Part shown: positions 17,627 through 21,129 of the stretch, one piece after another
Layout of the letters: each line of letters starts with the position of its first letter
How positions within the stretch are numbered: position 1 is the stretch's first letter
Assembly (NCBI GenBank): GCA_964016885.1
Contig: OZ024743.1
Location: 300,886,001 to 300,950,000, forward strand
Source of the DNA: Eledone cirrhosa
Lineage: Eukaryota
Reading direction: 5' to 3'
Length of the DNA: 64,000 nucleotides
The notes under the pieces: generated by a model
Database searches by the model: none
What the model saw: only the letters and a program-made list of their open reading frames with translations
What the model was told of the DNA's origin: nothing
Position numbers and translations under genes: made by a program

Positions 17627-17684
17627 GAAAATATGGGTGAGAAGAATACTGCTGGTTGCACATGGATAACATGTTATAAAATGA

Positions 17685-17786
17685 GTCCCTCATCGGTGAT
17701 TTACCAAACGATCATGGGTATTTCATCGCATTAAAAATCATATACCTCACGTTGAAGCGATAATAACTAAAATAAGTTATTAGGAC
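17685..17786 (-). ncRNA. Candidate non-circularly permuted hammerhead (copy G1, CCGATGA core)
   Basis: Minus strand: GTCC..hairpin..ATCGC..GGTAT-A-TGATTT-ttaat-GCGAT-GAAA-TACC..AAATCA-CCGATGA-GGGAC. Confidence 0.65.
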
Positions 17787-18216
17787 AATAGAAACGCGTA
17801 AAGCGAGTGAGACAAGTAAACAACACAGGGGGAAGCTAACCGAAGATGGAAATAAACGCAAGCAACATAGTTATTCTTTCAGCATAAGCTGTGTGAATAT
17901 ATGAGCGAGTCAGAAAACAGACCTTTCGCTAGTGAATCCGGTGTTAGAAAGAATCAAAACGTTTTCCCAGCGAACGGGAGGAAGAAAGAAGGGGAGAAAC
18001 AGGGACTGAGTGAGTGGGAGTGCGAGGAAGAGGTCAGTAGAGAGAAAGAGTTAACTGACATGGCAGAGGGGACGAAAGAAAGTAAGAGAAACAGAGAGAA
18101 CGAGAGAGCAGTAAGAGAGAAAGAGAGAAACACAGAATTGCAGTTTGGGTAAATATATGAAAATATGGGTGAGAAGAATACTGCTGGTTGCACATGGATA
18201 ACATGTTATAAAATGA

Positions 18217-18318
18217 GTCCCTCATCAGTGATTTACCAAACGATCATGGGTATTTCATCGCATTAAAAATCATATACCTCACGTTGGAGCGATAATAACT
18301 AAAATAAGTTATTAGGAC
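18217..18318 (-). ncRNA. Candidate non-circularly permuted hammerhead (copy G2, intact CTGATGA core)
   Basis: Same layout as G1 with CTGATGA; predicted H17 at 18273. Confidence 0.7.
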
Positions 18319-18486
18319 AATAGACACGCGTAAAGCGAGTGAGACAAGTAAACAACACATATATATTAATATATATATATATATATATATATATATTAAT
18401 ATATATATATATATATATATATATATATATATATATATATATATATATATATATATATATATATATATATATATATATATATATAT

Positions 18487-19257
18487 AAGGAGGTTATAGT
18501 TCACTTGGAGCATTGTGTAATGAGGTATAAACGTTTGTATATGTATAATAAAGCCAAAACAATGCAGGTATGGACATAGAATAAAGAATGCAAATGCAAA
18601 GGATATTGTTGACAATTAGTCTTTTACCTTAGATTTATTTAAATTACATTAATTTTCGAGATAATATCTCTTCTTCGGAGGGAAGTAAAGCGGTTAAACC
18701 AGTGTTCTGAATAGCGTGCCAAGTCATGCTGACAGGAAATGGTATAGTGTATCTGTTCTATCTCTAAAGTCAAAGAGTTAAGGTTAGGTGGATAAAGAGT
18801 AGTGTACCTTTAAAAGTGTTTTTTTCTTTTTGTACATGCCTTTTTATGTGTGTGGGAGAATGCATGCTTGTTTGTTTGTATGTTGTGTGCTTAGTTTGCG
18901 CATGTGTTACATCCAGGTCTCTGTGTGTGTTTTTATTTGTTTATTTATTTGTTTATTCACATGTTGTTAGTTGGTTGTTTGTTCTATGTGTGTGTGTTTT
19001 CATGTTATCCTTAATTGTAAGTTGTGATGCTGCTATTCAATTCATGTTTTCTATTTAATTTTGTTTGGAGTTCAGTTATGTTTATTGCCACTATTCTGTG
19101 TGTAGATTTTATTTTTATTTCTATGTTCTCTAATTTGCCCTTATGTTCTATTTTAGCATCTTGGTGGAGTACTGATGATTCTTTTCCATCTTGAAGCTCT
19201 CGCCAGTGTTCATTTAATTGTTCTTCTATACTACGAGCTGTCTCACCTGTGTACACT
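18487..19257 (-). mobile_element. Chimeric PLE fragment: Neptune-like GIY-YIG 3' end fused to the pLTR of the 12204-15336 family
   Basis: ORF 19011-19256 and UTR ~18867-19010 match 8944-9355. 18520-18866 matches 12204-12568. The tail 18487-18520 encodes MLQVNYNLL. Confidence 0.8.
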
Positions 19258-19384
19258 ATATATCAGCAGTAGTCTGCTGATTCTCATTGGTATTTCTTCG
19301 CATTAAAGACTAAATACCTAAAACCAGTGCGAGCGATAACTAAATTAAGGTATCGGGACCCATGTTGTTTGTTCACTTTCCTCT

Positions 19385-19486
19385 GTCCCGATAACTTAAT
19401 TTAGTTATCGCTCGCACTGATTTTAGGTATCTAGTCTTTAATGCGAAGAAATACCAATGAGAATCAGAAGACTACTGATGACGGAC
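19385..19486 (+). ncRNA. Candidate non-circularly permuted hammerhead (copy H1)
   Basis: GTCC(19385)..ATAACT/AGTTAT..TCGC..GGTAT-C(19431)-TAGTCTT-taat-GCGA-A-GAAA(19448)-TACC..AAGACTA-CTGATGA(19475)-cGGAC. Confidence 0.7.
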
Positions 19487-19912
19487 TTTTCTCGGTCTAT
19501 CTTTTTTCATATGTTCATATTCGTAACAACGCAGCAAGCCATTTTTCATTCACATATATTTTCCACTCGCTGTGGTTCGTATTTTTTTCTGTTACCTTAC
19601 TGCTTTCCTCTTTTTCTCTCTCCCCCTTACCAGTTACTTTTCTCCATCCCTGCTTCTGGTCACACACTCTAAGCTGGCCCCTTACTCACAATTTTACTCA
19701 CTCATTCTCTGCTACTCCTCCTCTCTCACTTCTTCCCGTCTGACCTGCGTTCATTCGTTCCTCTCTCAATGTTTTCATGGCTCGGACGTGTCTTGTCTAT
19801 TTTCTTCTCAACATTTGATTTGTCGGACTTAAGTCCACAAGATTCATTGACTTGTCTCTCTTTTCCTCTCTTTATGTTGCCTTACTACTATGTTGTTTGT
19901 TCACTTTTCTCT

Positions 19913-20013
19913 GTCCTGATAACTTAATTTAGTTATCGCTCGCACTGATTTTAGGTATCTAGTCTTTAATGCGAAGAAATTCCAATGAGAACAGCAGACT
20001 ACTGATGAGGGAC
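19913..20013 (+). ncRNA. Candidate non-circularly permuted hammerhead (copy H2)
   Basis: Same layout; H17 at 19959, CTGATGA at 20002-20008, then GGGAC. One stem III mismatch (ATTCC). Confidence 0.65.
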
Positions 20014-21129
20014 TTTTCTCAGTCTATTTTTATTCATATGTTCATATTCGCAACAACGCAGCACGACATTTTTCATTCATATATATATATATATATATAT
20101 ATATATATATATATATATATATATATATATATATATATATATATATATATATATATATATATGAGTATTGTGTGTATCTAGCGATACACGGTATATTTAA
20201 AATTAAACATTTAAAAACCCTTCAGGTATCCATTTGAAAACTGATGACGTAGCGCCATCTAGCGGATTCCAGCAGGAAGAATAATTGGTTAACCGTCGAC
20301 AGCATCGTGTCTGTTTCTGCTCGTTATCAATACATTTTTAACTTTCCTCCTCTCTGCTGGAACTCAAAAGAGGCGAAAGCATGTAGTTTCGACACCTACG
20401 TAGATGGGCTAATTTGCCCGGTTCGCATATAGTGCTATAGGCTGGTTCAGCTCGAAAATATAATGATGGTGTTCTCTGTAAATTGTATGCATATATATTC
20501 GCTCTATCATAGCTGTATACATACATACATATTTATTAGACGAACAACTTAATGGAGATTCGTCAGTAAGTCTGAGTTTGGCAATTCCAATGTTGAGTAT
20601 GATCACTGTGTCACATGCCTCTTTTAGAGGGCGTGCGTTGTGGGATACCTGTTATAATGGATCGAAAGTTGGGCATTGAGTTAAAATTATATATTTCATT
20701 GTTTGTGTTATTACATTTAATTAGCTAATTAACGGCGACTGTAACCGATATATTTGATATAAAAATTGAACACATGTCTGCTCACTCGGATCTCTCAATA
20801 TAGTGGACATGTATTATATAAAAAGGACTTTATTTTAAAAATTGTAATTTGTAAGATGGCTTATGACAAAGCCGTAAAACATGTTTATTAACGTAAGTTA
20901 ATAAACGTAAGTTTCCCATTTGACTCTGGCTTCGCTTGATAAATGTGTACATCGTACATAACATAATTTTAAGGAAGCATATATTAGAACACATGAAACA
21001 TTTAATAATGATCTCTGACGACAGATATTACAGTCAACCTTTATAATAAAAAAAATACATAAATATGTAAAATTCCTATCTTCTGTCTCACAGTTTATTA
21101 TATATTAGGTACTTTTAAAACATTTTTTC

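What the first reader, a model, noticed from the sequence alone, without database searches (positions are those of the whole stretch)
17627..20079. Two non-coding, (TA)n-associated retrozyme-like elements with ~530 nt ribozyme-to-ribozyme monomers
SEEN: G (17627-18359, -) and H (19362-20079, +) each have ~200 bp direct repeats starting TGTTGTTT and ending in TTC followed by ATAT. Each has a ~330 bp spacer that is pyrimidine-rich on the ribozyme strand and shows no obvious similarity between G and H, and neither has a credible ORF. Predicted cut-to-cut distances are 532 and 528 nt. H also has a PLE-style inverted partial repeat at its 5' side. KNOWN: retrozymes are non-autonomous retroelements whose repeated HHRs release monomer RNAs that circularise. 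INFERENCE: conserved monomer length despite spacer divergence suggests selection on a ~530 nt, possibly circular, RNA mobilised in trans, plausibly by a TA-targeting PLE.
Basis: partly seen in the sequence, partly recalled or inferred. Interest (0 to 1): 0.78.

Follow-up and report, generated by a model that had tools for sequence, protein, structure and literature searches.

The report
Scrambled hammerhead ribozyme in mobile repeats
These two elements belong to a non-coding repeat with thousands of copies in this animal genome, and each carries a likely self-cutting hammerhead RNA whose parts run in a scrambled order that also appears in Naiad retrotransposons reported to lack the usual ribozyme.

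Summary
The repeats, 532/528-nt spacings, TA flanks and H's 5' inversion are real. G and H are diverged subfamilies of one non-coding repeat (5,391-6,344 core matches genome-wide, reversed controls 0). Copies end at (TA)n and show 5' truncation, inversions and partial tandems, as Penelope-like element (PLE) insertions do.

The ribozyme is not the type I hammerhead of known animal retrozymes. Its blocks run site-GAAA-CUGAUGA (type SGC, a non-circular permutation). Stem II is split by an upstream splint strand, and stem III holds a kink-turn consensus. Stem I and distal stem III covary strongly, also on a tree; stem II support is weak.

The same SGC or CSG fold is readable by eye in about 15 of 54 published Naiad PLE consensi, a clade reported to lack canonical hammerheads. 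Only decayed Naiad-like RTs were found in this genome, so the present mobiliser is open.

Cleavage and circles are untested. The ~530-nt length largely reflects common descent (335-626 nt seen). Verdict: a new variant of non-LTR retrozyme with a previously unrecognised genomic permuted hammerhead.

The parts
17627..18359 (-). Element G: 532-nt monomer plus a 201-nt partial second monomer; young subfamily
   Evidence: 29 other best-hit copies have median 98.3% identity
18214..18320 (-). G upstream SGC-order hammerhead, intact; predicted cut after 18273; kink-turn consensus at 18281-18279 with 18248-18243
   Evidence: stem I 6 bp, II 1 bp, III 5 bp
17682..17788 (-). G downstream hammerhead copy, core change U4C at 17695; predicted cut after 17741, probably impaired
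17828..18158 (-). G spacer, pyrimidine-rich, homologous to the H spacer
19362..20079 (+). Element H: 528-nt monomer plus a ~190-nt partial second monomer; older subfamily
   Evidence: 25 other best-hit copies have median 89% identity
19383..19489 (+). H upstream SGC-order hammerhead, intact core; predicted cut after C19431; kink-turn variant with U at 2n
   Evidence: stem I 8 bp, III 5 bp, no 10.1-11.1 pair
19911..20016 (+). H downstream hammerhead copy, stem III mismatch at 19981; predicted cut after 19959, probably impaired
19560..19889 (+). H spacer
19263..19359 (-). Inverted partial copy of H (5' inversion); its CUGAUGA block is mutated and cut short
16125..17626 (.). (TA)n array at the 3' end of G
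18360..18487 (.). (TA)n array at the 5' end of G
20079..20162 (.). (TA)n array at the 3' end of H
18488..19261 (-). Not part of G or H: remnants of two coding PLE families between them
   Evidence: 81% to 8939-9355; 83% to 12201-12502

Best explanation
G and H are copies of a high-copy non-coding repeat, likely a non-autonomous retroelement copied by a Penelope-like (PLE) enzyme into (TA)n tracts, whose monomer carries a predicted self-cleaving hammerhead in the non-circular SGC block order, likely inherited from the 3' end of a Naiad PLE. Shown: block order, stems I and III, covariation, copy number and insertion signatures. Inferred fold: an upstream strand (GTCC, hairpin, TCGCA) splints the two halves of stem II into a four-way junction; a 4-nt linker ties stem I to the stem II substitute; a kink-turn bends stem III back so that the distal ends of all three stems meet. 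Inferred cycle: read-through transcripts of loci with two intact cores are cut to ~530-nt units and probably circularised. A PLE RT/GIY-YIG protein nicks (TA)n, primes at the internal ATATAT about 110-120 nt 3' of the cut site, and copies through the junction, giving fixed 3' ends, variable 5' ends and copies longer than one unit. The current driver is most likely the abundant TA-inserting C-terminal-endonuclease PLE of this genome, because only decayed Naiad-like RTs were found.
For: 6,344 matches to the GAAA-CUGANGA pattern and 5,391 to the site + kink-turn + GAAA + CUGANGA pattern; reversed controls 0. 28-sequence alignment: 93.6% of cells paired, 18 of 34 pairs with double changes; 24 same-branch co-changes vs null mean 4.8, 0 of 5000. 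CUGANGA intact in 27 of 30 loci picked without requiring it (my count). TA at the 3' end in 28 of 29 G and 19 of 25 H copies; 5' inversions in 10 of 25 H; 24 of 54 longer than one monomer. Both cores intact in 5 of 8 long G copies checked. Apparent excess of 5' ends at the predicted cut site. The same architecture by eye in Naiad_Ovul/Obim (identical TTATTTTAG hairpin loop, kink-turn) and other Naiads; CSG form by script in a fetched Naiad, L228. An intact, TA-inserting PLE with ~1,200-aa ORFs exists here.
Against: No cleavage or RNA data. Directly paired stem II is 0-1 bp: the 10.1-11.1 pair holds in 20 of 28 with only 1 co-change on the tree, and IIa and IIb have 1 each. The proximal stem III and core columns of the alignment are invariant by construction. 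Both window elements have one damaged core. No intact Naiad ORF was found, and no autonomous element sharing the G/H terminus. Only 1 of 21 fetched Naiad-like RT loci has a convincing motif in its 3' UTR, and the stem I + III descriptor alone gives chance hits. Monomers fold no better than shuffles (z -1.3, +1.0). A characterised PLE initiates internally at a site not homologous to the target (PMC11167929), so microhomology priming is my inference.
Confidence: 0.68

Rival explanations
1. The fold is a conserved protein-binding or RT-recruitment structure descended from a hammerhead but no longer catalytic in these elements; copies arise from uncut linear read-through transcripts of tandem loci, with no circles.
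For: Stem II is not canonical. 4,088 genomic copies span the cut site intact against 197 that start within 6 nt of it. Kink-turns are L7Ae/15.5K protein-binding motifs (recalled).
Against: Catalytic nucleotides are kept across subfamilies whose stems have diverged. 5' ends appear enriched at the exact cut site. Nematode Naiads have the same non-circular family of orders with a full stem II.
Confidence: 0.17
2. The ribozyme is active, but G and H are still mobilised by an intact Naiad that my limited searches missed; they are internal-deletion derivatives of its terminal repeat.
For: Architecture and TA targeting match Naiads. The two pattern searches used motifs that differ from the octopus Naiad sequence seen later. 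The protein query was a distant Naiad at about 30% identity.
Against: All 17 top Naiad-like hits carry stop codons or are short fragments; long open frames lower in the list that I examined belong to a C-terminal-endonuclease PLE. None of 50 motif-bearing loci showed an attached PLE ORF.
Confidence: 0.1
3. The RNA cleaves only in trans or as a tandem dimer, assembling a conventional hammerhead from blocks of neighbouring monomers.
For: Some PLE and axolotl hammerheads work better as dimers (PMC7229834 passages). The local stem II is minimal.
Against: Stems I and III covary within one ~60-nt stretch. The two stem II halves are not complementary to each other in any copy examined, so swapping partners between monomers does not create stem II.
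Confidence: 0.05

Closest known systems
Metazoan non-LTR retrozymes (Cervera & de la Pena 2020, PMC7229834; Li et al. 2026, bioRxiv 10.64898/2026.07.22.740005)
   Same: Non-coding tandem monomers, one hammerhead per unit, low GC, thousands of dispersed copies, proposed PLE origin.
   Different: Those carry type I hammerheads; this has SGC order. The monomer (~530, up to 626 nt) is longer than the usual 150-450 nt. Strict (TA)n targeting. Expression untested.
Type-SGC / CSG non-circularly permuted hammerheads (HRIMA-1; Eckert et al. 2023, PMC10085705)
   Same: Block order site-GAAA-CUGANGA, same core nucleotides, short linker from stem I to the stem II strand.
   Different: The published ones came from metatranscriptome contigs and none from genomes of known organisms. 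Here stem II is split by a splint strand plus hairpin, stem III has a kink-turn consensus, and there is no HRIMA-type I-II interaction helix.
Naiad PLEs (Craig et al. 2021, PMC8557442)
   Same: (TA)n insertion bias, tandem and inverted structures; the 3' ends of many consensi show the same SGC fold or its CSG permutation; octopus Naiads share the hairpin loop and kink-turn.
   Different: G and H have no ORF. The authors recorded only 'HHR_core' or 'HHR_half_core' and concluded that canonical hammerheads are absent.
Non-autonomous Chlamys PLEs such as MRC1 (PMC8557442 passage)
   Same: Non-coding, head-to-tail partial tandems produced by PLE retrotransposition.
   Different: They share 3' ends with autonomous families; no such live partner was found here.

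Membership tests
Non-LTR retrozyme | Tandem non-coding monomers, each with a hammerhead core | tested here: met
Non-LTR retrozyme | Type I (CGS) hammerhead | tested here: not met
   Only SGC order found in G and H; Rfam 0 hits
Non-LTR retrozyme | Low GC (<45-50%) | tested here: met
   Spacers 43-44%, cores 35-38%
Non-LTR retrozyme | Expressed as unit-length linear and circular RNA | not testable with these tools
   No RNA holder listed
Type-SGC hammerhead | Blocks in S-G-C order with CUGANGA, GAAA and NUH | tested here: met
   5,391 genomic matches
Type-SGC hammerhead | Stems I and III with covariation | tested here: met
   Stem I 5 of 6 pairs and distal stem III 5 of 6 with double changes; proximal stem III fixed by the selection pattern
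Type-SGC hammerhead | Directly paired stem II of several base pairs | tested here: not met
   0-1 bp; each half pairs with an upstream strand instead
Type-SGC hammerhead | Helix joining the distal sides of stems I and II as in HRIMA-1 | tested here: not met
   Replaced by a predicted junction of I, IIb and distal III
Type-SGC hammerhead | Site-specific self-cleavage | not testable with these tools
   Only an indirect excess of genomic 5' ends at the site
Kink-turn (consensus recalled) | 3-nt bulge followed by tandem G.A / A.G pairs between two helices | tested here: met
   G1b 28/28, A2b 28/28, A1n 28/28, G2n 25/28; some of these rows were picked by a pattern requiring it, but, 18 rows were not
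PLE-mobilised non-autonomous element | Fixed 3' end, variable 5' truncation, 5' inversions, partial tandem copies, microsatellite targets | tested here: met
PLE-mobilised non-autonomous element | Terminus shared with an intact autonomous PLE in the same genome | tested here: inconclusive
Naiad derivative | Same 3' ribozyme architecture as Naiads | tested here: met
   By eye in supplement passages; by script in L228
Naiad derivative | Alignable sequence shared with a Naiad of this genome | tested here: inconclusive
   Decayed remnants L249 and L260 show only GAAATRCC-like traces; model and blastn negative
Plant LTR retrozyme | Type III hammerhead in true LTRs | tested here: not met
   SGC order; 5' ends variable, no LTR boundary

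The most novel reading that the evidence does not exclude
Non-circularly permuted hammerheads are the standard ribozyme of a large part of the Naiad PLE clade across cnidarians, nematodes, arthropods and molluscs. In this genome a new architecture (stem II replaced by a splinted four-way junction, stem III bent by a kink-turn) drives a circular-RNA retrozyme family of thousands of copies that outlived its Naiad parent by switching to another PLE's enzyme.
Probability: 0.45. Interest if true: 0.9.

Novelty: new variant of a known kind. Interest (0 to 1): 0.8.

Why it matters
Type-SGC and CSG hammerheads were known only from metatranscriptome contigs (two CSG sequences in all). If active, these are the first in cellular genomes, at thousands of copies, and standard type I-III searches and Rfam miss them. 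They would overturn the statement that Naiads spread without hammerheads and make the role of ribozymes in PLE transposition testable in that clade. A hammerhead with a split stem II and a kink-turn is a new fold for RNA structural work, and it offers a geometric answer to Eckert et al.'s puzzle of how distal stem III reaches the stem I/II ends. All of this is cheap to test in vitro.

Tried and rejected
Rfam gathering scan: nothing.

Twister, pistol and box C/D readings: considered from recalled consensus and dropped, because their motif order does not fit and stems I and III covary as a hammerhead.

Pattern scans of metagenome and viral contigs: 8 + 1 matches, all with 0-3 of 6 stem I pairs, so chance.

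Expression: no RNA holder listed. The three laid contig sets (one sample, type not on record) show many variants and nothing on expression.

Rod-like monomer fold: not supported. Pol III A/B boxes: none.

Naiad RT patterns in the own genome: 0 and 0, weak because octopus Naiads differ at those motifs; 0 in viral contigs.

The coding PLE of the window as a sequence parent: its terminal repeat has a type-I-like core and no SGC motif.

Palindromic repeats among one search hits (L200, L202 and others): unrelated.

Earlier scan findings: none. Literature search returned only unrelated cephalopod papers.

Full report
OBSERVATION. The coordinates, direct repeats (spacings 532 and 528), TA arrays and the 97-nt inverted piece 5' of H are as described. 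No credible ORF exists. G and H repeats are 73-77% alike over about 75-105 nt, and their spacers are also homologous (score 54 vs 28.5+/-4, 0 of 500 shuffles). They are subfamilies of one element.

FAMILY. The window lies in a 3.0-Gb animal assembly; likeness to octopus Naiad ends suggests a cephalopod, which I did not establish. DNA searches gave 1,835 and 1,539 first-look candidates for the H and G repeats. Core patterns gave 6,344 and 5,391 exact matches, with reversed controls 0. Among best-hit copies, which are biased to intact 3' repeats (window copies and four duplicate H loci left out), 28 of 29 G and 19 of 25 H end in (TA)n. The one G exception was mis-anchored on a neighbour. 5' ends are scattered, 10 of 25 H and 0 of 29 G have 5' inversions, and 14 + 10 exceed one monomer. 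Median identity to the window copy is 98.3% (G) and 89% (H). The 3' end falls where the monomer itself reads ATATAT. Up to three cores occur in tandem. Core-to-core lengths in 34 distinct intervals range from 335 to 626 nt, mostly 523-534, with one subfamily at 620-626. Length conservation between G and H therefore needs no special selection.

RIBOZYME. Rfam finds nothing. On the element strand the order is GGTAT-H (site), stem I, TTAA, TGCGA-N-GAAA, stem III, stem I', CTGATGA, N-GGAC. A descriptor over all six block orders returns only SGC for G (I 6, II 1, III 5 bp) and H (8, 0, 5), nothing on the antisense strands, and 0 of 500 shuffles reach these scores. SGC is the non-circular permutation validated by Eckert et al. 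(PMC10085705; I read parts 3-4 of the text, most of the Discussion and passages), who found no SGC example in genomes of known organisms.

Two features differ from theirs. First, the halves of stem II do not pair with each other beyond one position; each pairs with an upstream strand (GTCC/GGAC, which covaries to ATCC/GGAT, and TCGCA/TGCGA) that encloses a 7-bp hairpin. Second, stem III continues through a 3-nt bulge and tandem G.A pairs, the kink-turn consensus (recalled), into a strongly covarying helix.

On 28 subfamily representatives (chosen from 91 distinct motif copies; alignment) 93.6% of cells pair and 18 of 34 pairs show double changes; slid controls pair 28-46%. RNAalifold recovers the nested part independently. 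With relatedness kept, 24 same-branch co-changes are seen against a null mean of 4.8 (0 of 5000): 13 in distal III, 4 in I, 4 in the hairpin, but only 1 each in IIa, IIb and the 10.1-11.1 pair. Core and proximal stem III columns were fixed by my selection pattern. As an independent check, CUGANGA is intact in 27 of 30 loci picked without it (my count). In the window, each element has one intact and one damaged core; 5 of 8 long G copies checked have two intact.

HINT OF CLEAVAGE. 4,088 copies keep the site intact and 197 begin within 6 nt of it. By eye, 19 of the first 100 begin exactly at the cut, 24 match one more base (4 of these are deletions), 10 match two, 11 three, and 36 four (these are ambiguous with TA runs). 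In an adjacent 7-nt control window about 37 of the first 100 of 213 matches look like true truncations. That is roughly 11 per position against at least 37 at the cut. The comparison is rough, and microhomology or RT stalling could contribute.

ORIGIN. Craig et al. (PMC8557442; passages, section 15, supplement parts 1, 24, 25 and motif passages) report that Naiads target (TA)n and lack canonical hammerheads, and note 8 'half cores'. Reading their consensus passages by eye, I see a clear SGC fold with the same splint in Naiad_Ovul, Obim, Amil, Aacu, Anas and four entries whose headers were not shown. I see a CSG fold with a normal stem II in Naiad-1/-2/-3_Nbra, Hcon and two unlabelled entries. 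That is about 15 of 54 from an incomplete view; Esco and Bfor are doubtful, and the ends of Adux, Omin and Skow-1 show none. The octopus versions share the TTATTTTAG loop, the kink-turn and the ~65-80-nt distance to the TA end. Several of these have no 10.1-11.1 pair, so the split stem II is old.

Among 21 Naiad-like RT loci fetched from contaminated microbial assemblies, one (L228, N-terminal GIY-YIG motif) has a CSG version with the splint in its 3' UTR. Seven have under 1,100 bases of 3' sequence, and the descriptor also gave chance hits elsewhere. Older, decayed SGC subfamilies exist in the own genome.

DRIVER. In this genome the 17 best Naiad-like RT hits have stops or are fragments, in line with Craig's remark that cephalopod Naiads are remnants, yet G copies are young. 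A TA-inserting PLE with a C-terminal endonuclease is abundant (22,656 candidates) with intact ~1,200-aa frames and inverted/tandem structures. It has no SGC motif. It is my best candidate, on circumstantial grounds; two other coding PLE families are also present. Internal initiation by a PLE RT is documented (PMC11167929, passages), though there at a site not homologous to the target.

COMPARISON AND NOVELTY. The element works like a non-LTR retrozyme (PMC7229834, passages; bioRxiv 10.64898/2026.07.22.740005, parts 1-3 of 5) but fails that family's type I criterion. It matches type SGC in order and core but not in stem II. Full-text searches for non-circular permutation, type-SGC, SGC/CSG, hammerhead + kink-turn + retrotransposon and Naiad + hammerhead found no report of such ribozymes in a cellular genome or in Naiads; the library lacks most subscription papers.

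VERDICT. A real, young, high-copy PLE-type non-autonomous element. I put the odds that its permuted hammerhead cleaves at about 0.78, Naiad ancestry at about 0.8, and circles as the template at about 0.55. New variant of a known kind; interest 0.8.

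Noticed in passing
window 6027-6200 (-): A separate TA-flanked repeat with a canonical type I hammerhead (stems 7/10/4, H17 at 6062); similar sequence is seen in L137, L141, L266 and L268.
   Followed up: partly
window 7000-9597: Inverted pair of 5'-truncated copies of a TA-inserting PLE family with a C-terminal endonuclease; intact ~1,200-aa copies elsewhere (L131, L132) hit no Pfam family; clade not assigned.
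   Followed up: partly
window 12205-15390 (-): Penelope/Poseidon-like PLE (RVT_1 + GIY-YIG) with a minimal type-I-like core reading CCGAAGA in its terminal repeat.
   Followed up: partly
window 9640-12204: 1.06-kb inverted-repeat, TA-flanked non-coding element with an internal 233-nt tandem.
   Followed up: no
window 15390-15940: Long near-perfect palindrome next to the PLE and the TA array.
   Followed up: no
window 18359 and 19362; L054, L027: Both window elements and two other copies begin at the same TGTTGTTT point of the monomer; possibly a transcript 5' end or a preferred junction; unexplained.
   Followed up: partly
L230, L237, L243, L248 (3' UTRs): Naiad-like elements from contaminated microbial assemblies share a different conserved 3' motif (GAGAGTT...AAAAGA...TTAA...TTCTCAAGG), possibly another structured RNA.
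   Followed up: no
L228-L248: Several bacterial genome records hold long contigs with Naiad retrotransposons and microsatellites, i.e. probable animal host contamination.
   Followed up: no
L200, L202, L203, L209, L210, L217, L218, L220, L225, L226: Palindromic, TA-associated MITE-like family with CTGATGA in a hairpin.
   Followed up: no
window 40500-61300: Cluster of RTE-like and L1/Tx1-like LINE copies, including a 915-aa frame at 54013-56760.
   Followed up: no
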